Assembly: GCA_023231475.1 (NCBI GenBank)
Contig: JALJEE010001195.1
Span: 1 to 55,573, forward strand
From: Seison nebaliae
Taxonomy: Eukaryota
Direction of reading: 5' to 3'
DNA length: 55,573 nucleotides
Part shown: in pieces, positions 14,172 to 42,894 of the stretch
Numbering within the stretch: position 1 is the stretch's first letter
Layout: every line of letters begins with the position of its first letter
Notes under the pieces: generated by a model
Told to the model about the DNA's origin: nothing
The model's database searches: none
What the model saw: only the letters and a program-made list of their open reading frames with translations
Program-made: the position numbers and the translations under genes

Positions 14172-17100
14172 ATGTTTATCCCGCTACTCCGGAAGAAACA
14201 ACGAGTGAAACATCTGCTGAATAGGGAACCGAAGTAAAAATATATTTTTGTAAATTTTACAGAGTGGGAATATTTCTCTTACAGTTTTAACCACTTGAGA
14301 AAGAAAGGAAGTGGAAATTAAATTTCTTTAAATTCTCATTTAATCGAGTGAGATAAACAAGAAAAAATAGAAAAAAAATGAAAATTAACCTGTTTTCCGA
14401 TCTATTGGTTCTATCATTGGAATGAATCAATTTTGTTCTCTAAATCCTTTTCTTGTTTTAATTAGAATCTCTTTATTAATTTTCATGAAATTGTGAGTAA
14501 AATTTAATTTTCCTAAAAGGAAAATGGTTGACAATGTCACCGATGATCCAATGGAAACTCCTGTCGATATAGAACCGAATGCAAAATATTTAGCTGAATC
14601 CAACGAAACTTCATCTGAAGAACTTTCTCACGAAATCCAAGACGATGACGAACAGAATGATTTAGAGAACTTATTTTTGCTATCGGTAAACGATTTCAAA
14701 ACGTTTATTCGTGATCCGGACAGTCAATGGTTTTAATTGTCTCTTAGAATTGTCAACATTTCAATTTCTTATTCCGTTAATAGGTTAATTGGAACGAATG
14801 GGAATTCAACTCGGTTACAACTGAAAAAAGAATTAAGCTTCTCAAATTCTGTTAATTTCAATAACTTATCAATGAACAGCGATGGGAATGATGACGAATA
14901 TGAGAATAATATGAAAGTTTCAAAATCGATGAGCCATTTCCAATCCGACAATTCATTAATCGAAAGATTAGATATGTTGAGTCAAAGTTAATGACATTAA
15001 TTCATCTTTAACGATGTCGTTTCACATCATTTTTCATATGGTCTTATTAGGTCGACATTCAATAGCGCTAAAATTGGGAGGTAAACGGATTTCTAAATCT
15101 CCAATTCAAAGTTTGTTTTTCTATTTTTTCTTATATGTCCGGTATTTCTGGTGTAATGGATTTGGGAAGTGAAAAATCAAATTATTTTTGAGTTAAGAGA
15201 GACACATGTATATTAGTAAATAGAAGAATTTTATGTTAACATTTGATTTGATGAAATTTCTCAAAAGGTTTAAAGGAGAATTCAATTTAATAACATCATC
15301 AGATCAGTAGTAAGAAGGAAAGCGTTCTGATAGAACATCATAGATTGGAAGGTAGTTGAAATTTTGTCTGACGGTATTCGTTCTCTATCATTTCCTTCAA
15401 TGCCATATTTGTGGACTTCGAATAATCACATTGGGTGATGTGAGAAAAAAATGTGAAAGGAGATAGGGAATAATGAATGAATGAAGAATATTAGTTTTTT
15501 ATAATTTTGAAAAAATTGTTGGGTTAATTGGTTTAATTAATTTCATTCTTCATGTTCAGCATTGGACGACGGTGAGGAAAGTGATGTTTTGCAAACGTCG
15601 CTATATTCGTCTTCTTCATTAGTTTATGATCATGAAGTGAACAATTGTACGAAACCAGTAGTACAGAGATCAGCAATTCCTTTATCACCGAAAACGATGG
15701 GATTACAACATTCTCCTTTCTCCTCCTCTTCTATTAACGTTCTCTTCTCACAATATCAACGACAACAACCTCCGAATCCTTCGTCTTCCTTCTCCACATC
15801 TTCGTCCTACATTTCTCTTATGAGTCGAAGTACGGATGATAGTGGTTATTTCGATTTCAATCATCATCCAACTACATCTCATAATTCATTATATCAACGA
15901 TATTGTCCATTGAATAATGATCTGAATTCAATCAACAAATACAATTCTTCATTAATTTTCGACAGTTTCGTTTATTATCATCAACTCTATCGAATGAGGA
16001 ATAGTTTAACTAAAACGTCTTCCGTTGATAATAATGACATTGGCACAATGTTACATTCATCTTCCATTTATTCTCTCATTAATAATCTCCATATGGAAAT
16101 TAATGATATTCGAACAAGTACCAGAAAGATGTTAAAAGAAACGAATTTCCCAAATTTTGTTCCAGTAACCAAATTCTCAATTTCTCCCGATATCATGGAA
16201 GAGATTAAACTTCTAAAAAATTCCAAACAAAAAAACAGATCCGATGATGAGACTGAATGGGAAGAGAATTGTGAGAATGACCAACTTCCTCGGGAAATGA
16301 GTGAACGTGAACGAATGATCATCGAACAAGAAAAGAAAATTTTGGAGAAAATTAGTTTTCTCAAACGACAAAGAATAACCACAAAAAATTCAATAAAAAC
16401 TCCGAGTAAAATCAATAAAAATAATGAAGACAAATTGACAACCATCACATCGATCGATAGTAACCAAAATAATGAAAACTTGTGTGAAGGTAGGAAATTT
16501 TTGACATTTAAAAAGAAAAAAGCCAAATGCACCAATATCATTAAAACGATAACTCCTGGAAATTTGAGATTAAATAAGAAATTGGAAGAAGAAAAATTGA
16601 AGAATGTCAAAGAGAAGATGAAATATGACAAATCATTAAATGAAGGAAAAGTGGATCAAATGACAACGTCATTCATTAGGAAACCTTCAGCTGTCCACAA
16701 GAATTTCCTTCAAAAAAACCAAAAATTAAAACGTCCCGACTCTCTCCACATTTCTGGAAGTCACTACAATTCAAAGGAAACTGATGATACCGATGACGGA
16801 AATGGAGAAGTGAATGAGAATGATTTAATGAAACTTCTCCTCCCATCGAACGAGAAAGACAAATTTGTTGCCCAATATTCGGCTTTACCAAAATCAGATA
16901 CGAATGATACTTTATCTGTAGCTAATTCGGTAGGAACAATCGTGAAACGACGTTGTCCTTCAAAAGCTGAAATGAAGAACGGGCCTGTAATACTCAGACC
17001 CAAGACGAGAGATGACAGATCAAAATTATGTAGAAGTGCATTTTACGAGCGGAAAGAAGAGAAACATATATCTTCGATGAATCTTCCAAGTTCAATTGAT

Positions 17101-20100
17101 AATGATGGAATGTTAACTTCAGGTGCATTAACTAATATAACGACACCAGATACGCCAACATATAATTTGGAAGAATATTTGAAAAATATGAAACAATTTC
17201 AATTTCAACCGTTGAACAAATCTGCCCGATTAGTTTTTCCTGCATCAGATGAAGACGATGAGAATCAATCAGATCTATTGTTTAATAATAAAGTGATGGA
17301 AACATCGATTACTACTTCCATTGGAAGTGTTTCGTCTTTGGGTTTCAATCGAAATGAGAATAAACACATTTTTTCCTTTCCGTCTCAACTTCTACCCGAG
17401 AAGAAATTTAAAGAGAATGACAATGATGAAAATGATTTCCTGAATAAGAGAGATACACCATTAGATGGTGCTTATTTCTCGCCTGTTGATTTTTCTTCAT
17501 CGTCTTCTGGAGATCAACAACACTCAGACAAAGATGATGGAATGATAGATGGATTAGGGTTCGAATGGGAAAATGAATGGAGTGATGAAACATGTCGAAA
17601 TGAATTATCTCAAGATGAAGATGAAAGTAATTATGGTGAAATGAGAATGATAAATAAAATGAATGAAGCATATCGAACACCATCTCACTCATCTGAGAGA
17701 TCTATTAAACAATTGTCCGATATCGAATCATTAGATACTTATCTGGTTGGAAATGACAATCCAAAGAAGAATTTCGTTAATGGAATTAATCATGAACGAA
17801 TGAAATCTATTCCTCAATCATCAGCCTTAAAAATCGCCATGGAAATGGAAGAGCGATTGATAAAGAATATGAAACGTATTTCGACAACAAAAAAACGTGA
17901 AGATAAGTTAGGGGAAGAGCAGCAACAAAAGAAGAGACAATTCAAACCTCTTTATTCCATCTTCCAACGGAAGAGACCAGCCATACATAACTCAAACACT
18001 TCTCTCCATATGAACACGAATGTTGGTGAGAAAATCGAGAATAAATTAGAAGTAAGAAAACCAATAACTTTCTCTAAACGCAATCGATTAAATGGTAAAT
18101 TTCCTTCATTTCCTCCAACTGTTTGTTTATTTTGTTCTTCCCCGTTTATTTTTAACTATTCTTCTTATCTACTTATTGGATGGGAAAGAATATCTTCATT
18201 TCTCCTTTTTATTTCTTTTCATTGTCATTTCACTTCCAGCATGAGTGCTATGTATTTGTCGTCAATATCCAATTATTTTGTGTTTCTTATCATTGCTATT
18301 GTCTTCTCACAAACTTTCTTTTATTTCTCAACTTTCGTTTGAATTCCTTAATCGTTTGACATTAAAACAATTTTACTATATATTTTAAGAGAAAAATTTT
18401 AAAGATTGCGGTAGAATTTAGAAAGAATAGGAATCTCTTAGTATGTTTTTGAATATCAATCAGTTTTTCTGTTTGTGAATTGTGAATTGAATGGAAAAAT
18501 TTTGTAGAAAAATTTTGTAAAAAGATAAAGAAAATTTCTTTTTGTTTTATGATAATATTATGAAGAAATCAGTTCTCAACTACTTCTACCAAATGGAATT
18601 GTTAACGATTGTGGATATGTTTCTCTTCTACGCTCTCGATCTCGTGATGCATTGAAGTCATTGGAAGAAGACATTTTATATCCGATTAATATGAGGGAAA
18701 ATAGTGGAAGTGAAGGATCATTGGGTCGATTAGGTATGTCATTTCCACCATCAGATTTCACTGCTGTTACTCTTAGTCATCATCACCAATTAGTGAAGAA
18801 GACATTGGATTATATTTTATTTTACTTGTTCTCGAGGCACAAATTGATTTACCTTCGAAAGAAGGCAAATAATTCTGGAAAATATTATTTCACTTTTATA
18901 TCTTTTTACGTTTCTTTTCACATCTAATCTGACGAGAATGAAAATCTAATATATGATTTCAGCTTGATTTTATCGCACACTTTACATTATATTATTTCAA
19001 ATATTTTTGTGATTATTTTATTTTCGATTCATTGCTACTACTAATTGATTTGTTCTTTTTTTTTTGTGTTGTGCATAATAACTGTATGATAATCTAATTT
19101 CATATTATTTTTCTTTTTCAAATAATTTAGAGGATGAGAGAAGGAATACATCAATCAAATCCATATCTTCCAACTGTTTGGAACCTTCGTCCTCTTATGG
19201 AAATCAGACGTACCATCACAAATTGAATGAAACTCGTAGTCCCAGTAAAGAAAGATCATCGTCGCGGGATAAAATGAAGAATCGTCCATTCGTCAATCCA
19301 CATGACTTTGAAAAGTTCCGTAATATGGTCGCTAACGTTGAAGCAAATCGACAACGAAGTCGTTCAAATAGTCAACAAAAATCTGGTTATGTTTCTGATG
19401 GTTCCAGTACGAATGTGTCGCCAATTCCTCAAGACACATTGAGAAGAGCAGAATGCCGTTACAACAAAAACTTGAATCGAACAATTCATGCTCAACTGAA
19501 CACAAAATTGACAAATCGTCAAATTCCACTCAACGAACTTACAGATGGACAATCAAACGAAGATGTGTCTGGCATTTATCATGTAAAAAATAGTAAAAAA
19601 GATTTCAATCGTTTTCGTAATTCCAATGGTGAGTTATTCTTTTAAAGCTAATTTTATTTGATAATTTTTTGTTTGTTCGTTTTGTCTGTGGATATTGATT
19701 TTATTAATTTTGTTTTAGTTTTCTAATAATTTTCTTTTTGTGTTACCTTGATGTAGGTGGAATTTATAATAGTAAGCCGCCGTTACCTATGAATGGGAAT
19801 TTGATAGGGAAACATCAACAATCACATCTTCTACAAACGTCGTCCTCAAATTATTCGGAGAAGTCGATCAGTAAGAATTTTTCAGAAGTCATCAATTGTG
19901 ATCAATTAACAACGCCCATCAGGTTGATAGAAATTTTATGAGAATTATCTCAGAATTTCTTTTATTTTCTCGTCTCCTTTGGTGTTTTGTGCATGAAAAT
20001 TGTATTTGCGATTTTTACCCATTTCTTTTTTTTATCAATCGAATTTAATAATTCCTTATTTTTGTTGCAGATCGTCTTCCGCATCTAACACGATTTCGAA

Positions 20101-21349
20101 ATCGCGGTTGAAACCACCGTCAACTATTCAAAATTCTTGTTCATTACAGCTTTCTTCCCAAGAAAAAAATAAAACGAAATCTCATTGCAATCTTGGAATC
20201 GATCAAAGAATATCTAATAATAAAATTTATTCATCAAACTCTCATCACTCTCGACTAAAGAGTCATGCATTTAGTGATGACGACGACGAGTATGAGGAGA
20301 ATATGAGAAATAATAATGAAGAAAATTTTGTGTATGAAGATGAACATGTGATGGATTATGGAGAGAATGATAAATTGAAAAATTGGGGAAAAGAAACAAA
20401 TGAAAAGAATGAACAGTCGATCGATTTTCATAAAGAATTGAATGTAGAAGAGAATTCGAAGAGTCAGAATATTCAAAATAAAAGGAAATTCTTAGAACTT
20501 CGTCGTAAGACTATAACAAAAGAAAGTGGGGCAATTATTTCGGGAATAAGACGACCATCCACTTCTCCCAATTCATCCAGAGCAATTAGTTCTAACACCC
20601 AATCTACACTTCCACATTCGTCCTTAGTCTCTACATCAACACGCAACAAAAAATTATCAACGTCCATATATAAAGAAGTGCGAGATAATTCCCCTTCCAT
20701 GTCTCAAGTTTCTTCGTCCACAACCGTGAATCGACCACTGGAAATCATTTCAACTTGTTCACCATCAAACCGAATAAGTGGGTCGGTGAGGAAACCAACA
20801 GGAAATCCAAGTCGGAAATTATCGTATACGGTTGCCACATTGAAGAATCGTCAAATGAATTCGAACGACCAATTATCATTTTCAAATGTTCAAGATAATA
20901 ATAAACTTTTGACAACGTCTCTCATTTCTCAAGTAAGTGATTCATCTGATTCAATAACTCGACGCCCAACCGTCGGCCATACAGCGAAAGGTGTTCCAGT
21001 CATTGCACCGTTCGAAGACATTGATAGTGGAATTTCTTCGTTTAATCTCAATGGAAAAGTTAAATATCCTGAAACTACATTTTCTTCATCATTCTATTCG
21101 CGACGAGACGAAGAAATTGACGAATCTCATCCTACTTCCTATTCGAATGAACAGTTAATAACACCTAACGTGACGAGAGGAAATTTCCAATCGAAGTTAA
21201 AACCGATCTCATATATCAACAAACCAGGCTTCTCTTCTGAAGCAACACATCGAACACATCTACCGACAGAAAGACTATATTCCAAAACTGGAATAAACAC
21301 ATTTTCGAAAATGAGATTGAGTTCAAAGCATTTGAATAGCCAGCACTAA
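14172..21349 (+). CDS. Large (~1716 aa) Ser/Asn/acidic low-complexity protein of unknown family
   Basis: Phase-compatible exons 14172-14233, 14520-14729, 14784-14986, 15051-15080, 15560-18094, 18566-18733, 19131-19628, 19757-19922 and 20071-21349 sum to 5151 nt. The 5' end is uncertain. Confidence 0.65.
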
Positions 21350-21729
21350 ACATGACACCTTAAGTCGTTTGCTTCATTTGTCTTCCCCATTTATATTTCC
21401 TTTCTTTTCTTCACGAAACTCACATTTCCTGTAAATCATTTGCGTCTCGTGTTACATTCTTTGTCTCTACTTTCACCTCAGTAATTAATTGGGAAATTTC
21501 ATTATCATTTATTCATATTCGTCTTCGTTTTAATACGTCTATATTATGATCACATCGAACGAATCACCAAGTTCTAAGAGTTTCAAGAATATTTTATTCG
21601 AATATAATTCTCATTAATGAAATTAATTTAAGTCTATTTATTCAATTCAAATAAAATATTTTAAATTTTGCCTTCTGAATCCAAAGTTCAATTTATTGAT
21701 ATCAGCATTATTACAAAAATCATCGTCTC

Positions 21730-21970
21730 TATCATGGACATTTTTTGAAAAAAGATTCTGGAAAGTTAATGTAGAAAGAGTTAAAATAAAAGGAAAAACC
21801 TTCAACAACGGTCGTTCTTCGTGTCCATTCCTTACAATATTGAGAATATCGATTTTTTCCCAGGGAAACCAAGTTTGTCTCCTTTCCACAACATATTTTC
21901 TTTCTTAGAACTCCTACGTCTCTCAAATAGGTGATTAATTCCTTCGATTTTTCAAAAAAACGGTTCATGG
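21730..21970 (-). mobile_element. Possible Merlin/IS1595-like transposase N-terminal remnant
   Basis: LITYLRDVGVLRKKICCG...YCKE...GFSF resembles the Cys-containing N-terminus of Merlin transposases. Fragment only. Confidence 0.35.
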
Positions 21971-24059
21971 CACGATGGACGGTGTTGTTATTTGTTGTGA
22001 AAACGGATGGGGCTGGGTATAAGATGATAGAAGATGAGATTGGAGATGGAAGTTTAATATAATATTTGGTTGATAATTTACTTTTCTTGTGATCTTGTGA
22101 ATTATCTTTTCAGGTGAAGGATGGTGGTCACTTTCTTCGACATAATCTGAAGACAGACGTTTTTTCCTGAAAACCATTCTGATTATTATGTATTTTTATT
22201 ACGTAATTAAATTATAATAATTAAACTAACATTGAAAATTTTAATTGATTTGATTGAAATTTGACTGAATTTTAATTGAATTTAGAAATTAGTTAATTGA
22301 TAAAGCTTAAAGTTTTGAAATTTTATTTCAAAAAATTTATAGAAAAAAAGTGATAAATCAAAAATCTAAAAACACTTACTTGTTAAGAATTTCAAGCTCT
22401 ACCTATATGTTAAGTTTCAGAAGAATTAAAAATTTTGTATTTTGTAGTACAAAATTTGTATACCAAACAGACTTTTACCGAATTGAGACATTAAATAAAT
22501 ATTACCATTTTTCCTTTCGTATAAATCACATTTGCTCAAAGAAAGCAATAGCTAACACTCGCAATAAGACAAATTTGTCAGAGTATGACAAGGAAGATAT
22601 AAGATACGAAGAATTAGAATATCTGAGGATTTTATTATTCTATAAAGTGAGTTCTTAAGCCTAATAATTATGTCTTTTTTGTGATGTCCATTACTCTACT
22701 ACAGCCGTTTGTGACTTATCCGTTTCTTTAAGGTCTCGCTTTTGTTTCATAAAACTAAAAGAATAAAACCGTCGCACAACAGGTAAAATGATGTGTAATA
22801 AAATTATAGGGTAATTTCGATGACGAAGTTCGAAATAGAAATAAAATACAGATGGAAAGTAGTGACTGTTGAATAGGAATATAAATTGATTGGGAGAAAT
22901 CGAGTAAGAATAAAATTTATTATAGTTATATTTTATACTTATTATATTATTATTAATTATTGAAAGACGAATACAAATTACAACAATTTGTTATTCATAT
23001 ATTTTATACTTTCGACTTTTATGATTTGATTGTTTTATTGACTAGTTTTTATACGATGTCCAATATATCCAATAACATACGACATTAACATACTTATTAT
23101 AGTACGAGGTAACCTTACACTATTTGATAATTTTTTTTCCAATAGACACTTTTCGTTTATTTTAGAGTTGAAAGAGGAGAGGACGTAACATATTCCATAG
23201 ACCACTCCCCCAAATAAGGCGAATGGGGAGTGGATCTTTTGGAATATGTTATGAAGAGACAAGAAGAACTAAAAAGGGAGACGAGGGTCCAACTCCCTCA
23301 ATAGAGTTGACAAAGGTACGAGGAGTTTTACTTTAAATCCGATTTATCTTTTATTTATGTTTAGTAACTAAAAAGTGGGTAAGATGATGCAGAAAATTAA
23401 GATGCTAACAACTTGTAAGATGGATTTAAGAGGCAAGTAAGAAAATGGATGGAACGTTCTTGAACTTAATGGTTATAAAATGTGTATACGTGTATCTAAA
23501 CAATTTTTTCGTAACATTGAATATTCTTCAAAATTTATCTGATTTAAAATTTTATAGTTAAAATTATAGTCTTAAGAAATAAAGTTGAATTATAATTCTT
23601 TAATCTTTTATTTGAATATATTTATAATTAAGTTTATTAATAAGTTGATTTATAATTGAAATATTAAGATTATTCTCTATTATCTGTTAATTAATCTGGA
23701 CAGCTTGTCCGAGTCAGTTTGTACATTATGTTTTCCCTTGACAAATTTCATACAGTATAGTATACTGTATGTTTTCCCTTGCCAATCTCATTCTCCATCT
23801 CCAGATTTTTACCGATGTCTCTGACGATTTGGTTGTCATCGATATCGCTGCTTGATTATCACTAACGAGGGAACATCCACCTAAAGAGATGGAAAACATT
23901 AAAAATTTTTATAGCATCTTATATAACATTAATTTTAAGAATTTTTGGTGCAATCAAAATGGACACTCGGTCTTCTATAAGTACCATAATTTAATTTAAA
24001 ATTTTAATATTCTCAACTTTGGGTAGATGGAAAAATTTAGTTGTGGTGACGGAATTTAA

Positions 24060-24340
24060 TGGTTTATAATTAATGCACATTCTGTATTTTCCGTTCTATT
24101 TCGGAACGATTACCACATTCGAGCACCAATCACTTTCCAGTTTTTCAATGATTCCGTTCGCTTGCATTTCTCTACTTATTTCTTCCATAGCTGTCCGCTT
24201 TTTCTCTGAAGATCGATGCGGTTTTTGTGCAATTGGCTGAGATATTCCGTTAACGATCTCATGTGCAACTTTCGGTGGTTGAGTCATTCCGGTGTCCTCC
24301 AATAATTCTTCAATTTCTCGTTCAATAGTATTAATGTTCC
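24060..24340 (-). mobile_element. Ty3/Gypsy pol fragment (start of RT)
   Basis: AHEIVNGISQPIAQKPHR...EMQANGIIEKLESDWCSNVVIVPK*. Confidence 0.8.
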
Positions 24341-25175
24341 TTGATATCGACAAATCATTCGGATCCACGATGTCGTCGTTATCCGATTGCTCTTCATCAC
24401 TACAGAGGTTGTTCAGTTTAATCAATTTCGAACTTTTATGATCTATTACCATGTCCTTCTCTCTTACAAGTATAGTAAAATGGAAGAAACGCAAAATACC
24501 ATTGCATCTTTCGAACTCTTCAAGAACAAAAGTGAAGATAGTCAAGAAAATTCCGTAATGAAACTTCGCTCTGGTCTTCGGGAAAATGTTCAATCCATCT
24601 CTGGTAAGAAATTAGAGCAGCAGAATGGCAATATCGTAACTACTGGGTGTTTTTCAGTGGAGAATAACTCGCGGAAGCCAGGTGTGAGTAAAATAAATCG
24701 GAAGAATGACAGTTCTCTTCTTAGGAAGAAGTTGGAAAAGAATGGAAAAGAAGATGAGGTTGACCGATTAGAACGGTCTTCCAAACATTCCGTCATCTCA
24801 TGTAAGTAAGATTCAGAAAGCTGGGAAAAAATATACCGGTAAAAAGAAAGGAGTTAAAAAAGGATCACAATAGGTTATTGTCGGTTGAAATTTGTCGTCT
24901 GTTATATCATATAAAGTACGACCTCCAAAAGTCAAACTCCGATCGATTATGATATCGAACGTATATGCTGATGTTAGCATTGAAAAATTTGCTAATTTTT
25001 TGCAGAATGAAGGTTTGAACTTCTCAAATTTGGCGACTGAAACATAAGAATTTTGACAACAGCGAAAGAATCCCTAAAACGTTTATTGTTAGTTATAAAC
25101 ATAGCTAACAATGATACTTTTTTCGATTCACAAAAATGGCCGACGAATTATATCGATGTCGTTGGGAGTCTAGGG

Positions 25176-25244
25176 ATTTGGTAGACCGGTCATTTGGTAG
25201 ACTAAACTATTTGGTAGACCGGTCATTTGGTAGACGGTCATTGG
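25176..25244. repeat. ~16-bp minisatellite (atttggtagaccggtc), about 4 copies
   Basis: atttggtagac recurs four times at ~16-17-nt spacing. Confidence 0.85.
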
Positions 25245-25789
25245 TTACTTTTTTCAATATATAATCTCATAATGTATATATTTTCGATTTCGACCTTTTT
25301 ATTTAGATTGAAATTACACCAAAATTTTGGATTATTTAAAGGGATTATTAGCATTATTATATTTAACATGTATTATTCTTATATTATCATTAATATTTAA
25401 ACGGATATCAATATATATCTAACAAGTGATAATGAAAAGTATATTTCATGCACATCACCAAATCACCCAAAGACACCTATAAGAAATGACCTTCTATAAT
25501 AATCGCTAATACGTCATTAGTAGAAGCAAAGAGGAGTTCTCGAGCCACTACATCATGTGAATAACACAAACCGTACGATAATGATGTTATTCACATTGAT
25601 CAACAAACCATTGTATATAAATAGGAAACCTTTTCCTAAGATATTATGTTCAATTTCTCTTTCTTAAATCCTTTATCCCTAAATAAAGTATCTATTATCG
25701 GAATAGTTTCCTCGCGTAGCCCACTGCTAAAATATATAGTGCAATATATCAAAGATGTCCTGACTTCAAATGTCGACTACAGCATCAAT

Positions 25790-26360
25790 CGAATCTCCAA
25801 CAATACAACATCGAATTGAAACAGGGAAATACTGTCCGATTGCGCAACGTCATCGAAAATATTCAAACAAGGAGCAGGAAATTATTGGGAATCGTCCAGT
25901 GAGGGGCGTTCAAATATTGTTTTGGTATTGAAACCAATGGACATATATCGGACGTGCATCAATTTCCCCGTACTCAATCAAAGTACTAAAATAATTCCAC
26001 TCAATTTTCCTAGAACAGAAGAGTTACTGAAATTATACGACGGCCACAAATGGTATCCGAAATTGGATCTTCTTAATGGACATTCATCCGGACGATCGTA
26101 AAAAAGCGGCATTCTCGGGGAATAACCATATTTACCAGTTCATCAAAATGACATTCGGTCTTAAAAATGCATCGACAACATTTCAGTCCAACCGAATAAT
26201 TGGAAATTGCGACTTCTGCACGGTGTACATGTATGATGTAATAGTGTACTCAGATACCGAAGGGGAACATCGAAATAACATGGATATGGTAATAAGGTGA
26301 AATCATTGAAAGGAAGCAAATATTTAATTGTTTTGATAGACGGATTTTCCAAATATAGGG
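25790..26360 (+). mobile_element. Decayed Ty3/Gypsy reverse transcriptase
   Basis: IQHRIETG..PIAQR, IHPDDRKKAAF, YQFIKMTFGLKNASTTFQ and VYMYDVIVYS (YxDD mutated), with deletions and frameshifts. Confidence 0.85.
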
Positions 26361-26699
26361 AAATAGAACGGTTTTTGAGAGTTTTTGAATGTCATCTATT
26401 TAGTCATTCGTTCTTAATGTTTCGATTACACTATACACCCTATAATATAGGGTGTATCAGATAAGTTTACAGAAAGAAGATTAATCACATTGTTCATTCC
26501 ACAACATCTTCCTTAATCGCGAGTCACTAAACAATTATGATAATTCAGGATTCAATCAGCGTTTTCGACGTTGAAACAATCTTTACAACTGTTGGTTGTG
26601 CATTATTAAGCCATTACATAATATGTAGTTACATTACAATACAATGTAGAATATAATTTTGAATAAGTTTAACATGATAACAAAATTTTAATTTTATAT

Positions 26700-26772
26700 C
26701 GCCGTGACCCGGGATCGAACCAGGGACCTTTAGATCTTCAGTCTAACGCTCTCCCAACTGAGCTATCACGGC
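26700..26772 (-). tRNA. tRNA-Phe (GAA)
   Basis: GCCGTGATAGCTCAGTTGGGAGAGCGTTAGACTGAAGATCTAAAGGTCCCTGGTTCGATCCCGGGTCACGGC: complete cloverleaf, A and B boxes, downstream TTTT. Confidence 0.97.
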
Positions 26773-28234
26773 GTACAAGCAACATCAATAATTTGATTGT
26801 CATATGAAAGACATTGTAATTTGGATTATACTATCACCATTGTAAATGGAATTATTAAAACATAATATCAGTAAATACCATAAGATGGTAATCGATACCA
26901 TACTCAATCGATTTTCTCAACTTTTCAGGAACTATTTAATAATTTGTAAGAAGAATGTAACTATCAACCAATTATTTTTTTTAAGTGGAATTCCCGTCGG
27001 GATAAATTTTTTGATCGATCTCCTCTACGGTCAGTGGTAGTACTATCGTTGTGGCATTTGGAACGTGCATAAACCACTGTGTTACGCACACCCCAATATG
27101 ACTCTACCGAGGTGCAGGGTACGTTATTTCGCAAATATGCCTGGAACATGCGCTACGCATGCCCAATTCCATTATAGTGAACTTAAGAAACGAAATTTCT
27201 ACTTCAAGTATTAAATTCCATATTTTTTTCATTTAATCAAACTTAATCTTAAAATAAAATTTTTATTTTAAATAATGATCAGTAATTTTCATTCAAGATT
27301 AAACATTAAAAATATCAGACCGTACTTACCGATCAGAGTTAATCGATGAATCGATAATAATGAAACTTATCGATTTATTCCTTCTCTGTTATTTCCAAGC
27401 AGTTTTTTTTAAATTACCACACTTTATGATTGGACACAACGCTTTATTAGATAAAGGACCAATGTGAGTTGTAAACGAGTTTATTAGTTGAAAGATGATA
27501 ATTTTTAAGAGATTAAAAGTCAACTATTACAAATAAGTGCGACCGCCAATTTCATTATATAGAACGTGAAGTTATTGAGAAGGGAATTATAGTTATTACC
27601 GTAGGTTTAGTAGAGGTTCCTTACTGTCCACCGGATTCGATGGCCAGAAGAATTCGAATCCAAGGGACAGAAAGTAACAGCCCGTATGAATGTCAATCGC
27701 GACGACCACAGATAGCTTATTTGAAAAATTTTGCTAATATTAGTATTGTAATTTCGGAGTACTAAACCACTGTATTATGTATACATAATCCACCGTATTG
27801 TTGGTTTTCCAAAGCTTCGTCTACCAAATGCGGTTTCCTCCATTTTCAGTGTTGAAGTTTCCTGACCCAGATTCTATATCATCAAATACGGTGATGACTA
27901 AATCGTTAATCCGACATTTATGATGAATTGAAACAAAATATGAATTTTTCATAATCTTATATTGAACGATATGTTTCCGAGCTTGCACGATATGTAAGAA
28001 TAATTTATAAATTTTATTTTTATTAATCTCATTATTAGAGTATTCTGAAAGAAATAATGGAAAACATAAAAGGAATTATTGAAATTGAATGGACTTCATA
28101 GAAATGGTCGTATCAGTAAACGGTTTTTATTTTGTAGAATAAATATAATAAGTAGGAAGATGGAGTGGTGAGATGAGGAAAATAAAATATGATTATTTAT
28201 AAAAATTATATTAAATATAACGAAAAAATCATTA

Positions 28235-32761: not shown

Positions 32762-33978
32762 AATTAGGAAAGAAATTAAGGAGAAGAAATTCTAAAAAAA
32801 AATTGAAATAAATTTATAACACACTTTTCTAACGACATTTCTATGCTTCACTAAATAATTTAAGGAAATCCATTGGCGATGAATAGCAACATTATCTTTC
32901 TTTCAACACACCTCATCTTTACATTCAATTCAATTAGATAAAACAATGTAAATGTACATGTACGTACAAAGATGAATAACAAAACATATATATTGAGAAA
33001 TTACTTTTATTGAAAGAATGATTGATATTAAATTATTCTAATTAACATTTCCAGGTTACACGTTCCATCTAGTTAATTATAAACCACCCAAATACATCAA
33101 TTCATATTTAACATATTCATTCTTGTATCATAACACAACTTTTTTATTTTTCAAGTCGACTACTATCAACATTGAGAACACACAAACTACTTCACAGAAC
33201 ATCACTAGCGATATAAATATTCATAAAATGTAAAGAGTACGGAATGAAGGAATATTATGGAGAGCTTAAATTTCAGTTGTTTCAAATTCTTGTTTATGTC
33301 AACAGTATAACTATAAGAAGAATTGAAATGAGGCGGGCGAAACAAAAAGTAAGCTGACGGATTTTTTCATTATTCAAACCTGTTTTGCTTATGCTATTGA
33401 ACGTTAATATTATGAATAAAATTATTATTAAAATTAGTAGTAGTATTAAGTAATTATTAAAAACTATAAAATTACTCTTAAACTTACTATTATTATCTAT
33501 TCATAATAGCATCACAACATTTAATTCTTTCCATTACAATAATGATCATCTGGAAAATCAAATTTAGTACCTTTTCAAAATTGTAGATTTTTTTTCCATT
33601 AGTTGCAGTACAGTAGCATACAGTATAATAAACCGAAGGAAAACTTCCGAGAATTGGAACTTCTCACCTATCGGTTTTACAACATCATCCGAATATCCAT
33701 ATTTTTATCCATAAAATGAAGAATATCGATTTTAATAATATCAAAATTTTAAACATTTGCTAAGAAATAAAATTCCAGATTAATGAAATGTTATTTTCAC
33801 GTGTTTCATTGAAACATTATTGAGATAGATTTTTTCTTTAATTGTCAATGTAAATATAGACATTTTAATTTAACTCTTTCGCCCACCTGAAAAAATAAAT
33901 ACTATAATTAAGTTTTACACATTCGTGTAATTGTTCTTATCTGACAATATTGTGAGACCTGAGACTTGGAAAATAAGA

Positions 33979-35520
33979 ATGACGCATAATTTGAATGATG
34001 TACTTATGGATATATTATGTCGTTTAGCGGATTGTCGAAATATTATGTCAACGACAACTCTCATAGAAGAACATACGAAACATGAACCAAATCGGATTTT
34101 ATTGAGTCAAAGTGTCATCAAAAATGTATGTTTTTCATTAAATTTCTTTCCCTTAATATTAATCGTCTAATTTCCAGAATTATACATCCAGAGAACAATC
34201 TTGTCTCTTTCAACATCAACGTAGACGTTTGAAACGATCGAAACCGATTCCAAACATGATTGTCGAGAAGAAGAGTTCTCTTCAACCATTGAATTTCCAT
34301 AAATTAATTTATAATCATGAACATTCGAAATATTTGAAGGATGATAATCGACGTCTTGTTCGTGCTATTAAAAGGAATTATTTATTATTAGAGATTAATC
34401 GTTTATGGCGACTACATGGATTTACTGATATTCCAATTATATCTAAACAATTGACGGAACTCGAATTATATTCGAAGCCGATTGTCATATCACCGATATT
34501 TCCATCAATTTCTCCAAATAATAATTATGAACAAATTGATGATAATTCAACAATTTCTCATGATAATAGTGTGGAAAGTGAGAAGAATAATCAATCATAT
34601 TCTATCGTAATTAAACCTCCACTTCATATGCAAATGATGAAGGAAATTGAATTATCCAAAATATCGAAATGGAAAAAAGAACGATCAAATTTTTCAGATG
34701 TAGTTAATCATACGAAAGAACCAGTCATAAAATTCGAACCATTAAACAAATCTCACGTCCAAACGCTTAACAATCTTTTGAATATTTTCTATGCCGATTT
34801 CCAAAGTGACGATTTTATTGATGTCACTCCTTGGCTCCAATGGCCAAATCAGACGGTTATAGCCATAGGTCCTGGTAATATTATCGTTGGATTTGCATGT
34901 TCAATAATGCAGTACCATTATTTATCTCGAACGAAACTAACGAAACCGCAACTTCTTTACCGATTATCGGACGAGACGGAACACAAAGTAGAATTGAGTC
35001 AGGAAAATGACGAAACAGAAAATAAGAAATACAATTATAATGAAATACGATTCTGTCTAACGGATCAATTGTTTGTTAAAGGAAAATTGAGAAATCCTAG
35101 ATGTAAACAAGTCTATCTTCCATATGTTTTCATTTTACCGAATTGGCGAAAAGTGGGAATTGGAAAAAAAATGTTAACTCTCCTTTTAAAACAAGTTCAA
35201 TCCGTTTTTCTTTCTTATAAAAATGATTATTTCTTTAGATTATTCGTCAACGATCTTCTCATGAAGGTTTTACAATCGCATGTATTCATGTACCCACAAC
35301 AGATTGTGATACATTAATTTTTTTTCAAATGTTCGGATTTAAAATTCTCAAGAAGATTATTGGTTTTTATAAAAATTTCAATTACAAAAAAATCCGTATC
35401 GGTTGCAACAGTACCAGATGTTCACAACATTTACAATTGGATGAAACTCATCTTTATAATGAACTTCCAACTTGTGTTCCAAAGCGGTATGATGCATTTC
35501 TATTGTCTCTCGTTTTGTGA
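33979..35520 (+). CDS. KAT14: GNAT lysine acetyltransferase, KAT14/CSRP2BP/ATAC2-like
   Basis: Introns 34126-34177 and 35195-35238. Motifs HVQTLNNLL..F, IDVTPWLQWP, FILPNWRKVGIGKKML, IHV...FFQMFGFK and AFLLSL match the KAT14 C-terminal domain. Confidence 0.75.
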
Positions 35521-35732
35521 TAATTCCACTTTATTCTCATCATCTCACGAATACAGTCAAATATATTGTCAATTTATACAAATACATCTTTTTTATTATA
35601 GGATTTTTTAAATTTTCATTGTAATTTATTTTCTATTTTCTATTTCTTTAATTTTCTATCGTAATTTTAAAATTGATCAAATATATAATTTTTCATTTAA
35701 ATTTTATATCAGAATCATTTTTTTTCACTGTA

Positions 35733-38053
35733 ATGGTCTCCAAAAATCGAAAAGATAAATTATCGAAGAAAGAAGAAATTTTTCAATCACAACTAAATGA
35801 TGAAATTAAAGAATTAGAAGAAACTTTAGGAAAAATCGATAAAGATAAAAAATATGAAGATTTTATTGATTTACCAATTTCAAACAAAACCAAACGAGCG
35901 TTGAATAAAAATTCCTTAATAACATTAACAGATATTCAACGGGATACTCTCATTTATTCATTAAAAGGAATTGATGTGATGGGAACGGCAAAAACAGGAA
36001 GTGGGAAAACATTGGCATTCATAATTCCAGTTCCAATTTTTCTTTTTTTTTATTTTTTCTTCATTTTTCAGATTCTAGAACTTCTCTATAAAAAACGATG
36101 GAGTAAGATTGATGGATTAGGAGCTCTCGTTATAACACCAACTAGAGAATTGGCGTATCAAATTTTTAATGTTTTACAAAGAATAGGAAAGTTCCATGAC
36201 TTCTCAGCCGGTTTAGTTATAGGAGGGAAATTTATGAAAAAGGAAGCAGAAGTTATTCGAACAACAAACATAATAATTTGTACACCAGGAAGGCTGTTGC
36301 ATCATATGGATGAGACATGGAATTTTAATGCTGACAACATTCAGTTGTTAGTTTTAGATGAAGCGGATCGTATGTTAGAGATGGGATTTGAAGAGACAAT
36401 GATAAATATTTTACAGAATATTCCAGAAATTCATCGACAAGTTCTATTGTTCAGTGCCACGAGAACCAAGTGAGAATTATCTTTTACTTTTGTAAATTAA
36501 TAAAAAAATTTTCTTTAAGGAATTTAGATTCTTTGATAAAGTTGTCTTTGAAAAATCCTGTGGATATTTCCTCTCATGAATTAAGCGCATTGATGACACC
36601 TGATAAATTGAAACAATATTATATGGATGTGAAAGTTGAGGAGAAGATTCATATTTTATGGAATTTTATAAAGATTCATGTCAATTCAAAAATACTCATT
36701 TTTGTTCAAACGTGTAAACAGGCGAGATTTATTTTTGATGTTTTCAGTCATATGCAACCAGGAATTCCCTTATTGGTTCTACATGGAGCAAAGAAACAGT
36801 TACAACGTGTAGAAATTTATAACCGGTTTTTGCGAGACAAACGTTCGTGTCTTATTGCAACGGATTTGGCATCAAGAGGACTTGATTTCCCTTCGGTTGA
36901 ATGGATCGTGCAAATGGATTGTCCTTTTGATATCGAGACATATATCCATCGAGTTGGACGAACAGCACGTAAGGACTTGAGTGGACAATCATTATTACTC
37001 GCAACAAATAGTGAAATGAAATATTATTCTTCAATTTTCCAAGAGAAGAGAATTCCGATAACTAAAATGGAATCGAAGAAATTTCATAAATTTTCGATTG
37101 AAAATAAATTACAAGTGATTTGTGCGAGAGACCAAACTTTTCAACAAAATGCTAGATCAGCTTTTGTGGCTTATTTCAAATCGTTGTATTTGTCGGGTAA
37201 AAAGGAAATATTCGATATCGATTCAATTAACAAAGATGAATATGCACAATCTCTCGGACTTGTCACTACACCCAGATTACGATTTTTAAAGAAAATGGAA
37301 AATTCCCAATTTTCCGTTGAGATTGATCAAGATGATGATGACGAAGTAGAAGTTTTAATTAAGAAAGTGTCAAATCGATCGACTGATTTTGAAGATAATG
37401 ATGATGTGGAAGAAGATTTAAAATTAATGAATGAAGAAAAAATTAAAAGAAATCAAAAGAGTAAATCGAAAAAAAAAATAATTTCCAACTTACTAAAGAA
37501 AGAATCGAATGAACAAACAACAAACCATATTCATTTCACCGAAGATTATGAAATGGAAGAGGAAGAATTAAATGATGATGAAATAAGTGATATATTGACA
37601 ATTGATAATCGTTTGGAACGAATGAAAGAGCAAGATAAGATTGATAAAGAAACTTATCGGAAGTTGCTTAAAGATAAACATAAAGAAAAAAAAATTAAAG
37701 AGAAGGACAAAAATAAAGAAACAAAAGACGATGAAAAGAACCAAAAGTTTAATGTTTCTCTTAATATGGATAATGATGATAACAGTGATGTTACTGATAA
37801 TTCTGACGAAGATTTTATTGAGAATAAAAATAAAAGAAAAATAAGAAAGGATGGAAATGAATTTGATTCAGATTCACAATCAGATAATAAAGAAATTTTG
37901 GAAACCAATCTGGATTCTGATGAGGATAGAAGAACAAAAAGAAAAAGATCATTAAATGAACAAGATGTTGGAAAAGAAGATGAAATGAAGAAAACGATGA
38001 AATTTTCATTGGAACAATTAGAAGCAGAAGCATTAAAAAACTTAAGTGGATAA
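35733..38053 (+). CDS. DDX10: DEAD-box RNA helicase DDX10/Dbp4
   Basis: AKTGSGKTLAF, WSKIDGLGALVITPTRELAYQIF, HDFSAGLVIGG, DEAD, SAT, HRVGRTAR. Introns 36030-36071 and 36470-36519. Confidence 0.95.
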
Positions 38054-38134
38054 TTTTCATGAATTTTTCGATCTATCTCCTATTTCAGTTAAGGAATATA
38101 AATATATCATTCAATTGCTTAATCTAAATTGATG

Positions 38135-40927
38135 TTAACCTATCGTTAATTTTCCTAATGCTTCTATTCGATTTTGTATCGCTGGTTTTTCCATGCTCTT
38201 CAACTTTTCCAAAGCATCATCGAGTGATACGGAATTAGCGAGGAGTCCCTTCTCCATTAATGTTGATACTTCATCGATTGCAGATTTCATGTCGCCATTT
38301 GTAGTATGTTTATCTGCCTTTTTAATTAATTCAGATTTGAGTAAAGCAGCATTCGTTCTTGCTGTATTCATGGTAACACCAGGACGTAATGGTAAAGAAG
38401 AAGAAAATCCGATCTTCTTTCCAATCAATTTCTTCTTCTGTTTCTTCTTTCTATTTTTTTTCTTTTAACAAAAATAAATTATCGAATAAAATAATTTTCT
38501 AACAGATTTAGTTGACTAAAAATGATGAATGTTCAAATGGAACAATATTTAATATTTACGAAATAATAATAAAGAAAATTTTAACAGTTGACCGTTTTCT
38601 CGTATGGGAACTGATAATACTTTCTGTTTCCGACGTTTCCAACGATTCCGTTCGATGATGTTTTCGACGTTTCTATAAAACTTAATTTTCAACAAATATC
38701 AGAGAAATTATAAACTGTTCTTGCAAAAATGCTCAAGAAAATTCCATCGGAAATTGATGTTGGTGGTGCTTGATAATAGTTCGTGAAGGTCATATGCTTC
38801 TCAATTCCATCTTGATCAATCGGAATTAACGGTGGTGAAGGTTTAAATATCCAATTGTAATTAGATGTAGTCCGAAATTCCTTCAAACAAGCATTCACTA
38901 AATCGCTGTTTTCTGCTGTATTGATGGATGTCGTCATATAAACGATTGCAGATACAGATCGAACTAAAAAGAATTAATAAGAATTAATAATTAGAGAAAG
39001 AAAAATATGGCGAACAAGTCATTGCATGTAGCATTAATTCTCGTTCACGAGATATCATCGAATTGATGTTACTTCTTCCGTTTTGTAAATCTGCAAATGT
39101 TTTCAATGAACTAAAATCTAATGTATGTCAATTTCATTTTATGTCATAGATATAAATCGTTGAAGATAAACAAAACCATCACTATGTCGAACAAAATAAT
39201 CAACTGGGTCTTTAATTCCGCTAGTCGAACCGTCGACATTGATTGTGATAACTTTAATATCAGACCATTTATCTGAACTGTTTTTCGTCGAAATAAAATT
39301 CTCTCGGTGTAAATTGATCGTCTTCTTATAACCAAGTTTCTGAATAAACGTTTGAATTTCCTGGAATTTTTCTGTTGATATATCATTAGTAAATGTATGA
39401 ATTATTCCATTCATTCCGTAAGATAATGACGCTATTAATGATGGGAGATATCCTATGTGATGTTATTGGAATATTAATTTATCATTTAGAAATTATGCAA
39501 AAACCATTATCAACATTGGTAACGATAATTGGATCCTGTCGATTTAACAATTTCACAGTTGTATAGGCAGTTAAGTATGTTGTTCGAGAATCGATAATCA
39601 ATTTAAAGGATGTAATCAATTTTGACGATTCCAATTTATCTCTACATCAGATTCATTAAGAAGATTCCAAATTATACAAAAATACTTACTCAACTGATTT
39701 ATCAAACATTAATAGCGATGAAAAATTTGGGTCGACAAAATAATGATCTTCATCTGTCCCATCTGATTCTTCAACACTCTTCAATTGTAGTTCTTCTTCC
39801 AACATCTTCGTCACTTCTTCCGCACTTAAAGATGAATGATATCAATAGAAATGTCTGAATTCTCAATGTCTAACTTAGATTTTGCAAAATTGATCCAAGC
39901 ATAGAAATGTTTGACAGGAGATGTTAAATCGGTGGATGTGTCTTTATTTGAAGCGAGACTATCCAAATCCTGTGCTTCATGATCGATTCTAAATGAAAAA
40001 TAAATTAACATTTTCAGTTTTTATTTAATTAAATCGAACCGATTTCGAGCAATAGATGCAGCAATCTTCGTTCCCCAACTATTAACTGCATCTTCAATTT
40101 TGTAAAGAATCTCCTCTCCCTTTTCTTCGTCATTCAATATATTTCTTTTAGTAAATTTCCTTCGATAACTATCAAAAGCAATTATTGTACAAAAGTTCTC
40201 ATATTCGGAGAACTATTAACAGATGTTGTGAGAGAAAAAAAAAGAGGAAAATGAACATCAGGAAAAGTTGTATAGAATTCCGTTTCATCCATAATCTTTT
40301 CAATCAGCCACTGAACTTCAAAAATTGAAAAATTATTTTTTCCAATTACAAAGAAAGAATGAAACATTTCAAGACTCGGAAGGCTAATCGGAGAACATTT
40401 TCTTTTTGTTTGGGTGAATCATATCGAATATCCAAACCTTCTGTTAAATGCGAGTCTTTATCAGAATAATTTCCAATTTCAACTTCTTTTGTTTCTTTTA
40501 GAAATCCATAAACTTTTGATGCTTTCAATAACGTGACTTGGTTATATTCCAATTTAACTTTATGGATGGCATTCTTTAAAATTTCTCCATCCATTTCAGG
40601 TGTTTTTAGTTGGAAAATCTTTCCAAATTGTCTCAATCTATCATCCATTGAAGTAACTGAAATTTTCTTGCTAACTAATCGTGCTATACTTATACAAAAT
40701 GGGAAAGTAATTCAACAGGTAAAAGGAAAGAACAATTATTATTATATAGACAATGCTCATAACGAACTAGCAAGTGTAGTATATGACGGCATATTCTCTT
40801 TCATCTCACTGTTCTCGGATGACCTCTGACTCTCCATATGAGTTTTGGACAACTTCCTACTCCTACTCCTACTCCTTTTTATGGATGAAATAGACGATTG
40901 TCGTGACTTTAGCCGACCTCCAGCCAT
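38135..40927 (-). CDS. NSUN7: NSUN7-like RNA m5C methyltransferase-family protein, about 13 exons
   Basis: Spliced product contains RLAFRVLKFQWLIEKIM, IIAFDSYRRKF, KIAASIARNRIDH, FYAWINFAK, KVITINVDGSTSGIKDPVDYF, LHAMTF and AIVYMTTSINTAENSDLV, colinear with vertebrate NSUN7 blocks. Twelve short introns. Confidence 0.85.
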
Positions 40928-41214
40928 AGCAAAATTATTCTCAGAACGAAATAAAGAAAAGTGAGAAAAATGAATTGATAAATTCCTTCCTGTAAACTTC
41001 AATTAAAACCAAGAATGAAATCTGTTAATTAATATACATAATCCAAAAGAAATGTGTAAACTAAAGTAAAAAAAACTAGTTTCTAATAGCAACAAAGTCA
41101 GATTTAAGTCAAAAGAAATAAATTACAAATTTATTTTTTCATGTTAATATTTCTCCAAAATTATTATGAAAAGAAAAAACTTTAGCTCGAAACAGAAAAA
41201 AAAGTCAAATAAAA

Positions 41215-41696
41215 TCACAAAGGAGGTTGATTCAGACGTTGTTCTTTTTTTTCATTCTCAACATATTTCTGGAATTGTTGAAAAACCTTCGAAGGAAAAA
41301 AAGTTGAAAGAAAACTATTTTTTTTCCAATTAAAAAATAAACTTTTAAGTTCAATAAATAATTGGGAGTTGGTTTATTTTTAATTGCATAAAAATAAAGA
41401 TCCCATTCATTGTCAGTTGCATTTAAAATTATATCTAATTCCTTCAATTCATCAAGTTTCATTTGATTTATATTGTTTTTGACGAAATTGGACAAGAGAA
41501 TTCCATTTTCTAAATTTCCTCGTTTGCGACTCTGATAAATGAGCCGACTTCTAATTAAATCTTTATTTTCATTTACGCCTTTCGCTTGATTATATTCATA
41601 TGCGTTCGAAAATTCAGAAAGATTCGTTCCAGATGAATGTCGAGTATTTATAAATGCTTTTATTAAAGATAAACGAGAATTCACTGAGCGAAACAT
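41215..41696 (-). CDS. SDHAF2: Succinate dehydrogenase assembly factor 2
   Basis: RSRLIYQSRKRGNLENGILLS...NEWDLYFY. Removing intron 41287-41342 restores the C-terminus KEQRLNQPPL. Confidence 0.93.
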
Positions 41697-41911
41697 CTCT
41701 GAAGTCAAATAAATAGAAGCTCTTATTTCAAATATGATATATCTAACTTTTGTGCGATAGAATTTTCGAATAAAGTTGCGGAATTTTAACGCAATAAATA
41801 CATAAAACCAATTCACGAGTAAGCAGGTAAGAGCCAAATATTTGACAAAGGAGAAACGAGGAAAAAACTTGGAAAGAAAATTTGTGAAACCAATATCGTT
41901 ATATTCTATCC

Positions 41912-42894
41912 ATGACCGAATTGGTATGTCTGCAATTATAAATTACAAACTTTTCGTATAGATACGTGTATATATTATTGTTAACTAGTTATTTTTTTCA
42001 TTGAAAGTTCAAGTCGATTGAATGACGTCGTGAATTTTGCAAAGGATAAAGATGCGCCATGTTCTAAATATTTTCGGTTGTAATATATCAACTGTCTGAA
42101 CTGGCTCATTCGAATCATTCCTCTGTTTTTCTCATATATCTAATTGTTTGAATCTTCCGTTTTTATTTTTCGTATCTTTCTTTTTAACATGGTGTCAGAA
42201 TATCAGAAATAATTTCATTTCTTATTAAATTAGTATAGAAGTTTGAAAATTTGTTCTGTAGATTGATATGGTGAAGTGTTATAATTGTAACGAAGATGGG
42301 CATTTTTCTCGCGATTGTCCCAATGGCAGTAGCGGAGGAGGAAATCGTGAAGGAGGTGGTGATTCGAGACGATGTCACCGATGTAATCAGACTGGGCATA
42401 TTGCTAGAAACTGTACCCAGATGGAACCAGTTTGCTACGAGTGTAACGAAACCGGACATATGAGACGTGATTGCCCATCAGCTGGAGATTCTGTTAAAGA
42501 AGTCACCTGTTTCAAATGCTCTCAACCGGGACATATTGGACGAAACTGTTCAGCTTCAAATGACTATGACAGTCAAGGACGTCAATCTAACAGTGAATGT
42601 TATCGATGTCACAAATTTGGACATATTGCCAGAAATTGTACCAATTCAAGCAATGGAGGTAGTTATGGAAATAGCGGTGGCGGTTATGGTGGTGGTCGAT
42701 CTTCCAACGTTGTCTGTTATCGATGTAACGAGGAAGGTCATATGGCTCGCAACTGTACACAGGCCGGTGGATCGTCAGATATTACATGTTACCGTTGTAA
42801 CAATACTGGACATATGGCTCGTGATTGTTCGGAAGAGATTAGATGTCACTCCTGTCAAGGAATTGGACATCTTGCACGTGAGTGTAACGCCTAA
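41912..42894 (+). CDS. CNBP: CNBP/Gis2-like zinc-knuckle nucleic acid-binding protein with 8 CCHC motifs
   Basis: Eight CX2CX4HX4C motifs and Gly-rich linkers in 42268-42894. A probable 4-codon first exon (ATG 41912) joins in frame through intron 41924-42261 (GTATGT...TAG). Confidence 0.88.

What the first reader, a model, noticed from the sequence alone, without database searches (positions are those of the whole stretch)
14234..42261. Length-dependent dichotomy: long introns keep GTA/GTG donors
Seen: introns over 100 nt start GTAAAA (14234, 286 nt), GTAAAC (15081, 479), GTAAAT (18095, 471), GTATGT (18734, 397), GTGAGT (19629, 128) and GTATGT (41924, 338). Only one starts GTT (19923, 148). 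Five of these six GTR donors follow an exonic G. Inference: canonical U1 pairing still operates for long introns, while ~45-nt introns use a different rule, implying two coexisting recognition modes. The sample is small, and most long introns come from one gene model without homology support.
Basis: partly seen in the sequence, partly recalled or inferred. Interest (0 to 1): 0.72.

Follow-up and report, generated by a model that had tools for sequence, protein, structure and literature searches.

The report
Rotifer introns that start with GTT
In the rotifer Seison nebaliae almost all short predicted introns start with GTT instead of the usual GTA/GTG, while the few long ones keep stronger, more conventional start signals, likely an extreme form of the known rule that long introns need stronger splice sites rather than two separate splicing systems.

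Summary
The window is a Seison nebaliae (rotifer) contig. All seven quoted GT..AG intervals exist. The deposited gene models share four exactly (18095, 18734, 19629, 19923), use a GTT donor 30 nt downstream instead of 15081, and lack 14234; 41924 is unresolved. No RNA run was available. Short introns are 46 of 50 GTT (background 43%), and 23 of 23 where the reading frame allows only one donor. Their match to canonical U1 is no better than a random GT's (4.18 vs 4.13 pairs). Annotated long introns are 3 of 7 GTR (p=0.033), not 6 of 7; four short introns are GTR. The sharper length signal is total U1 match: -1G in 6 of 7 vs 11 of 50 (p=0.002), and three of four long GTT donors are CAG|GTT. This is a leaky strength gradient, known from worm, fly and human, resting largely on one alternatively spliced gene. 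Two U1 classes are untested. The more unusual fact is GTT-dominant, nearly U1-blind donors in an animal; bdelloid-like controls are mostly GTA, and a published BUSCO table scores METTL16 missing only in Seison among 25 syndermatans.

The parts
14524..21349 (+). SNEBB_002230, orphan low-complexity gene, two deposited isoforms (1626 and 1682 aa); holds 5 of the 7 annotated long introns
   Evidence: no Pfam family
14234..14519 (+).
   Evidence: upstream 14172-14233 is 45% GC against 24% for the interval
15081..15559 (+). Long intron with two frame-compatible donors: 15081 GAG|GTAAAC (reader) and 15111 AAA|GTTTGT (deposited model)
18095..18565 (+). Long intron, ATG|GTAAAT, 471 nt (1036 nt when the next exon is skipped)
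18566..18733 (+). 168-nt cassette exon, present in P0051 and absent in P0043
   Evidence: a divergent low-depth contig aligns over about 18688-18746 (joint table)
18734..19130 (+). Long intron, TAG|GTATGT, 397 nt
19629..19756 (+). 128-nt intron, ATG|GTGAGT; most of its sequence aligns with a divergent lineage
   Evidence: 19602-19739: 19 other letters, 9 gaps, in X3 and X4
19923..20070 (+). 148-nt intron, CAG|GTTGAT (long, GTT, strong exon side)
41924..42261 (+). Candidate 5' intron of CNBP, TTG|GTATGT; donor unresolved (rivals 41819, 41827)
10800..11106 (+). Annotated long GTT intron, CAG|GTTAAA, 307 nt, in the doubtful tail of SNEBB_002229
11378..13886 (+). Annotated long GTT intron, CAG|GTTAAT, 2509 nt, in the doubtful tail of SNEBB_002229
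36470..36519 (+). Short (50 nt) GTGAGA intron in DDX10, forced by the FSATRTK motif: counterexample
34126..34177 (+). Short (52 nt) GTATGT intron in SNEBB_002234; no frame-compatible GTT alternative
38080..40927 (-). SNEBB_002236, 13 short introns, 12 GTT and one GTAAGT (39689)
7506..10561 (+). SNEBB_002229, first 8 short introns, all GTT
46120..49982 (+). SNEBB_002240 receptor tyrosine kinase, 9 short introns, all GTT
51011..53444 (+). SNEBB_002243 soluble guanylate cyclase, 9 short introns, 8 GTT and one GTAATT (52941)

Best explanation
Short predicted introns in this Seison nebaliae contig start GTT with almost no other match to canonical U1 and long ones keep a stronger U1 match, likely because one ordinary spliceosome defines the short introns across the intron and the long or alternatively spliced ones across the exon. 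Shown: short introns (38-84 nt, median 49.5) have the donor GTT-H with 1.1 bits at +3 and at most 0.26 bits at any other position beyond GT; long introns reach 5-7 U1 pairs through +3 A/G or through the exonic AG/G. Inferred: the narrow length window plus a T-rich 3' end supplies most of the specificity for short introns, so U1 pairing has decayed; +3U is probably selected after or beside U1, for example as a G.U wobble with U6 G44 or by a protein contact, possibly linked to loss of U6 m6A; long introns cannot use the length cue and keep U1-complementary donors. The length effect is a gradient in donor strength, not a switch at +3.
For: 46 of 50 short donors GTT vs 43% background, p=3e-13; 23 of 23 frame-forced donors GTT; short U1 pairs 4.18 vs 4.13 for random GT; information per position; long vs short U1 pairs p=1e-4, -1G 6 of 7 vs 11 of 50 p=0.002; long GTT donors with exonic AG 3 of 4 vs 4 of 46 short, p=0.007; both long introns flanking the cassette exon are G|GTA. 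Literature: splice-site strength rises with intron length (PMC3245539 part 1; PMC1713244 abstract and Background); +3 faces U6 G44 (PMC11732430 section 9); METTL16 scored Missing only in Seison of 25 species (PMC12256650 supplement row 252).
Against: No RNA confirms any junction; how the deposited models were made is unknown to me. Only 7 annotated long introns, 5 from one gene and 2 from a doubtful tail; two of the three CAG|GTT long donors are in that tail. Within the gene p=0.2. No length trend among short introns (rho 0.05). Known METTL16 loss shifts +4 to U (PMC10581693), but +4U is 19 of 50 here, and 18 of 46 GTT donors vs 16.3 expected; about 35-40% of BUSCO genes are scored missing in Seison, so the Missing call is weak. 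U1 and U6 sequences were not seen.
Confidence: 0.48

Rival explanations
1. A single co-evolved U1 (Entamoeba-like, A opposite +3) reads GTT as the optimal donor; GTR donors are tolerated leftovers, and long introns simply add exon-side pairing (CAG|GTT).
For: +3T is a strong positive signal (1.1 bits); 4 of 7 annotated long donors are GTT, three of them CAG|GTT; precedent in Entamoeba (bioRxiv 10.1101/2022.06.08.495308 passages).
Against: 3 of the 4 long introns agreed by both models are GTR, the opposite of what a U-reading U1 predicts for the strongest donors; +4 to +6 carry almost no information, unlike Entamoeba's near-invariant GUUUGU; U1 ACUUACC stayed invariant during +4 switches in yeasts (PMC10581693).
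Confidence: 0.2
2. The association is with regulation or gene history, not length: a few old, alternatively spliced introns in one gene keep ancestral donors, and genome-wide the +3 base is unrelated to length.
For: All 3 annotated long GTR donors are in SNEBB_002230, two flank its cassette exon and the third intron aligns with a divergent lineage; within-gene p=0.2; long GTR frequency 3 of 7 equals random GT background 38%; unsupported models leave 3-6 frame-compatible donors per long intron.
Against: All strong candidate donors for the CNBP 5' intron and for the 14205/14234 donor are GTR; the test is significant for all five intron sets tried.
Confidence: 0.2
3. Two coexisting machineries: a canonical U1 for long introns and a variant U1 paralog (or a U1-independent route) for short GTT introns.
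For: Short donors match canonical U1 no better than random GT; long agreed donors are 3 of 4 GTR.
Against: Both classes leak (4 of 50 short GTR, 4 of 7 long GTT); the short class has no consensus at +4 to +6 that a dedicated variant U1 would explain; no snRNA evidence.
Confidence: 0.12

Closest known systems
Length-dependent splice-site strength; intron versus exon definition (C. elegans, Drosophila, fungi, human; PMC3245539, PMC1713244, PMC1431713)
   Same: [quoted passage not shown]
   Different: Here short donors fall to the level of random GT for U1 match and carry a positive non-canonical +3T signal (92%), so the gradient shows up as a base switch.
Entamoeba GUUUGU donors with co-evolved U1 (bioRxiv 10.1101/2022.06.08.495308)
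   Same: +3 U dominates; G.U or other pairing with the U6 ACAGA box is possible.
   Different: Entamoeba is intron-poor with an almost invariant hexamer (88-90% GUUUGU); Seison here is intron-dense with no consensus after +3, +4 G absent, and GTR kept in some long introns. U1 not seen here.
U5-class (AG//GU) versus U6-class (//GURAG) donors and METTL16/SNRNP27K dependence (PMC11732430, PMC11347140, PMC10581693)
   Same: GURAG is nearly absent (2 of 50 short); long GTT donors are AG//GU; METTL16 is scored missing in Seison.
   Different: The known signature is +4U, not +3U; short donors here have neither AG// (4 of 50) nor GURAG; SNRNP27 is scored Complete.
Bdelloid-like rotifer introns (metagenome loci L003-L013)
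   Same: Same short length (43-66 nt in TCTP), AT-rich, A-rich exon end, T-rich TAG acceptor.
   Different: Mostly GTA: 19 of 19 TCTP introns; 6 of 8 distinct short positions.

Membership tests
Major (U2-type) spliceosomal introns | GT..AG ends whose removal restores the reading frame and conserved domains | tested here: met
   57 of 57 introns GT..AG by construction of the mapping, each deposited protein mapped with one solution; Pfam profiles continue across junctions
Major (U2-type) spliceosomal introns | Junction seen in RNA | not testable with these tools
   No RNA holder listed; X1-X4 behave as DNA
Length-dependent donor strength (intron vs exon definition) | Donor complementarity to U1 higher in long than short introns | tested here: met
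   p=1e-4 for pairs, p=3e-4 for duplex energy, n=7 vs 50
Length-dependent donor strength (intron vs exon definition) | Holds across many genes, genome-wide | not testable with these tools
   No genome held; within-gene p=0.2
Entamoeba-type co-evolved U1 | Near-invariant atypical donor hexamer | tested here: not met
   Only +3 is fixed; +4 to +6 carry 0.26, 0.10 and 0.12 bits
Entamoeba-type co-evolved U1 | U1 5' arm changed to pair with +3U | not testable with these tools
   No U1 in the window
METTL16-loss splice-site phenotype | Preference for +4U | tested here: not met
   +4T 18 of 46 GTT donors vs 16.3 expected
METTL16-loss splice-site phenotype | METTL16 gene absent | tested here: inconclusive
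   Scored Missing in a published BUSCO table, in a genome with about 35-40% missing; no direct search possible
Shifted-register (+1) U1 recognition | Consensus displaced by one base (GTT followed by RAGT-like) | tested here: not met
   Shifted-register pairs 4.35 vs 4.02 background, no test run; no G or T excess at +6/+7
Two-U1 / two-mode system | Non-overlapping donor classes by length | tested here: not met
   4 of 50 short GTR, 4 of 7 long GTT
Two-U1 / two-mode system | Two expressed U1 paralog classes | not testable with these tools
   No genome or small-RNA access

The most novel reading that the evidence does not exclude
Seison nebaliae is an intron-rich animal whose bulk of introns is recognised almost without U1 base-pairing, through a rewired +3U rule (variant U1 paralog, or a U6/protein contact after loss of U6 m6A methylation), while a canonical-U1 route survives for long and alternatively spliced introns: two donor-recognition routes in one major spliceosome, partitioned by intron length.
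Probability: 0.2. Interest if true: 0.85.

Novelty: new variant of a known kind. Interest (0 to 1): 0.5.

Why it matters
Donor consensus is among the most conserved splicing features in animals (PMC3033335 passages). An animal with about 90% GTT donors that carry no more canonical U1 match than a random GT would be a natural test of how much U1 pairing intron definition needs, and of whether +3 is read by U1, U6 or protein. If METTL16 is truly lost, it would be an animal counterpart to the yeast cases but with a different sequence outcome. It also matters practically: gene predictors and readers using GTRAGT will misplace donors in this lineage. The length effect itself is an expected gradient and would be surprising only if two U1 classes turned up.

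Tried and rejected
No whole genome held. No RNA holder listed for 14200-24000; X1 and X2 laid on 2300-22200 behave as DNA with no intron joints. Deposited CNBP protein not retrieved. Rfam found only a tRNA; a U1-like pattern gave 2 hits vs 4.4 expected. No divergent-lineage cover was seen over 14100-14343: absence of cover, not evidence. 15081 vs 15111 could not be decided. Outron/spliced-leader reading of 14234 and 41924: acceptor-like AG upstream of 16 start codons scored only slightly above 370 intergenic ATGs (p=0.04); SL trans-splicing is reported in bdelloids and not in Brachionus (PMC1925144 passages), nothing found for Seison; kept as a minor possibility, and the 45% GC of 14172-14233 favours a real upstream exon. 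Shifted register and +4U signature not met. No clear branch-point word. Protein atlas gave no answer for the 13887-14051 frame; Pfam had no hit above cut-off. Rows dropped from the rotifer control: L018 (51% identity, not clearly a rotifer; its two introns were GTT and GTG), 8 loci without introns in the match, three positions per locus in the taspase-like gene where L008 and L011 disagreed or were implausible (L008: GTC, GTT, GTT; L011: GTC, GTA, GTA), and one 235-nt GTA intron. The 1036-nt skip junction was not counted as a separate intron.

Full report
Identity and data. Deposited proteins on a 55,573-base contig are named SNEBB_002229 to 002243, Seison nebaliae, so the window is a whole contig of this seisonid rotifer. 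I therefore used (a) seven deposited proteins of six genes, each mapped back to the DNA with a single exact spliced solution, giving 52 introns; (b) five hand-placed introns in DDX10, SDHAF2 and a small basic gene (Pfam support for the first two); (c) low-depth divergent contigs. How the deposited models were built is unknown to me; two isoforms for one gene suggest transcript evidence (inference).

Observation check. The seven intervals are as quoted. The deposited isoforms share 18095, 18734, 19629 and 19923. The exon 18566-18733 is a cassette: present in P0051, skipped in P0043. A divergent contig at depth 3.75 aligns over about 18688-18746, consistent with a real exon end and donor. The deposited models use AAA|GTTTGT at 15111 instead of GAG|GTAAAC at 15081; both are in frame. 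They have no intron at 14234. An upstream exon is plausible (45% GC), but donor 14205 gives an equally open chain from an exon at 13950-14040 through a 127-nt GTAATT intron. For CNBP, no deposited protein starts at the three in-frame ATGs tried, and CAG|GTAAGA at 41827 is a stronger donor than 41924.

The short class. Of 50 introns up to 100 nt (38-84, median 49.5), 46 start GTT against 43% for all GT in the window (p=3e-13). This is not a predictor preference: in 23 of the 50 only one GT within 30 nt keeps the frame open and the intron cannot be read through, and all 23 are GTT. Beyond GT, information is 1.1 bits at +3 and at most 0.26 elsewhere; +4 G is 0 of 46 against 9.9 expected; -1 is A in 26 of 50 and G in 11. 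Pairs with canonical U1 (sequence recalled; -3 to +6, G allowed opposite consensus A) average 4.18 against 4.13 for random GT. Four short introns are GTR; 36470 (GTGAGA, 50 nt) is forced by alignment of FSATRTK to human DDX10 FSATQTK, and 34126 has no GTT alternative; 52941 and 39689 do have one.

The length effect. The annotated 3 of 7 is no different from random GT (38%), and within SNEBB_002230 the contrast is 3 of 5 vs 0 of 3 (p=0.2). The stronger signals are -1G (6 of 7 vs 11 of 50, p=0.002), total U1 pairs (5-7, p=1e-4) and duplex energy (-5.7 vs -1.9 kcal/mol, p=3e-4). Three of four long GTT donors are CAG|GTT against 4 of 46 short ones (p=0.007), though two of these three lie in the doubtful tail. 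So long introns keep U1 complementarity by either route; +3 is one component. No trend exists within the short class (rho 0.05).

Outgroup. Metagenome loci with TCTP 57-82% identical to the Adineta steineri protein (taxon inferred) have introns of the same size and base content, but 19 of 19 TCTP introns in 10 loci start GTA. Counting distinct short positions, with neighbouring genes, gives 6 GTA and 2 GTT, against 46 of 50 (p=1e-4). The sample is small, rows were dropped as listed, and had the two uncertain L008 GTT calls been kept the contrast would be weaker. Shortness alone does not force GTT in these relatives.

Mechanism. Shown: donor composition and its length dependence in this window. 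From the literature: short introns are recognised by intron definition and have weaker sites, and exons flanked by long introns need strong donors (PMC3245539, part 1 of 3 read; PMC1713244, abstract and Background; PMC1431713, abstract). Inferred: in Seison the length window and T-rich 3' end carry the specificity, U1 pairing has decayed, and +3U is selected at another step. Position +3 faces U6 G44 (PMC11732430, section 9 part 1), where U could wobble; Roy and Bowser note extra U6 pairing potential for Entamoeba GUUUGU (passages). A supplementary BUSCO table scores METTL16 Missing in Seison alone among 25 syndermatans, with U5-40K and SPF45 also Missing and SNRNP27 Complete (PMC12256650, supplement rows). 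In worm mett-10 mutants usage moves away from GURAG, in one example to AA//GUU (PMC11347140, passages), and GURAG is 2 of 50 here. Against this link, the known signature is +4U (PMC10581693, passages), which is not enriched, and 35-40% of BUSCO genes are scored missing in this species (PMC8351084 section 9). That 3 of 4 agreed long donors are GTR argues mildly that U1 still reads a purine at +3. Odds: one spliceosome with a strength gradient 0.48; single variant U1 0.2; gene or regulation effect rather than length 0.2; two U1 classes 0.12.

Novelty. The length gradient is known. In ten library searches (listings read, selected papers opened) I saw no description of Seison or rotifer GTT-dominant donors; the library lacks most subscription papers, and bioRxiv supplements are closed, so a donor logo may exist elsewhere. 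Earlier scan notes on GTT donors in other genomes pointed me to the Entamoeba paper and the shifted-register test; they are leads, not support. Verdict: observation partly confirmed, interpretation partly supported, new variant of a known kind, interest 0.5, most of it owed to the GTT short class rather than to the long-intron contrast.

Noticed in passing
PMC12256650 supplement, BUSCO rows 240, 252, 709: METTL16 is scored Missing only in Seison among 25 syndermatans; U5-40K and SPF45 are also Missing; SNRNP27 is Complete.
   Followed up: partly
window, 46 short GTT donors: G never occurs at +4 (9.9 expected); acceptors end in AAG in 14 of 50 short introns.
   Followed up: partly
window 13887-14519 (+): An open chain 13950-14040, 14168-14204, 14520 onward (introns GTAATT 127 nt, GTGAAA 315 nt) would give SNEBB_002230 a longer N-terminus, using an exon that the annotation attaches to the end of SNEBB_002229.
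   Followed up: partly
window 19629-19739: The 128-nt intron aligns with divergent low-depth contigs (19 other letters, 9 gaps over 138 letters), unlike the neighbouring long introns; may hold regulatory elements.
   Followed up: no
window 10900-13400 (-): Protein-like open stretches of 40-67 aa that overlap in different frames without intron-sized gaps; possibly a decayed gene; no Pfam hit above cut-off.
   Followed up: partly
window 41233-41696 (-) and 42268-42894 (+): SDHAF2 (Pfam Sdh5) lies head to head with CNBP; it has a 56-nt GTT intron at 41342.
   Followed up: yes
start codons at 14524, 32761, 35733, 41696, 42268, 43345, 50505: Acceptor-like T-rich AG within 30 nt upstream of the ATG; slight excess over intergenic ATGs (p=0.04); could be 5' UTR introns or spliced-leader acceptors.
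   Followed up: partly
   Followed up: no
window 6284-6947: Very high-copy repeat (summed depth about 18,000-43,000 against 15-30 elsewhere).
   Followed up: no
window 25800-26400 (+) and 26700-26772 (-): Broken frames resembling a retrotransposon reverse transcriptase (resemblance recalled, not tested) next to a tRNA gene (Rfam; anticodon reads GAA).
   Followed up: no
L003-L012: In bdelloid-like loci the gene upstream of TCTP has lineage-specific intron presence (none in L003 over 396 codons; one or two in L009, L010, L012).
   Followed up: partly
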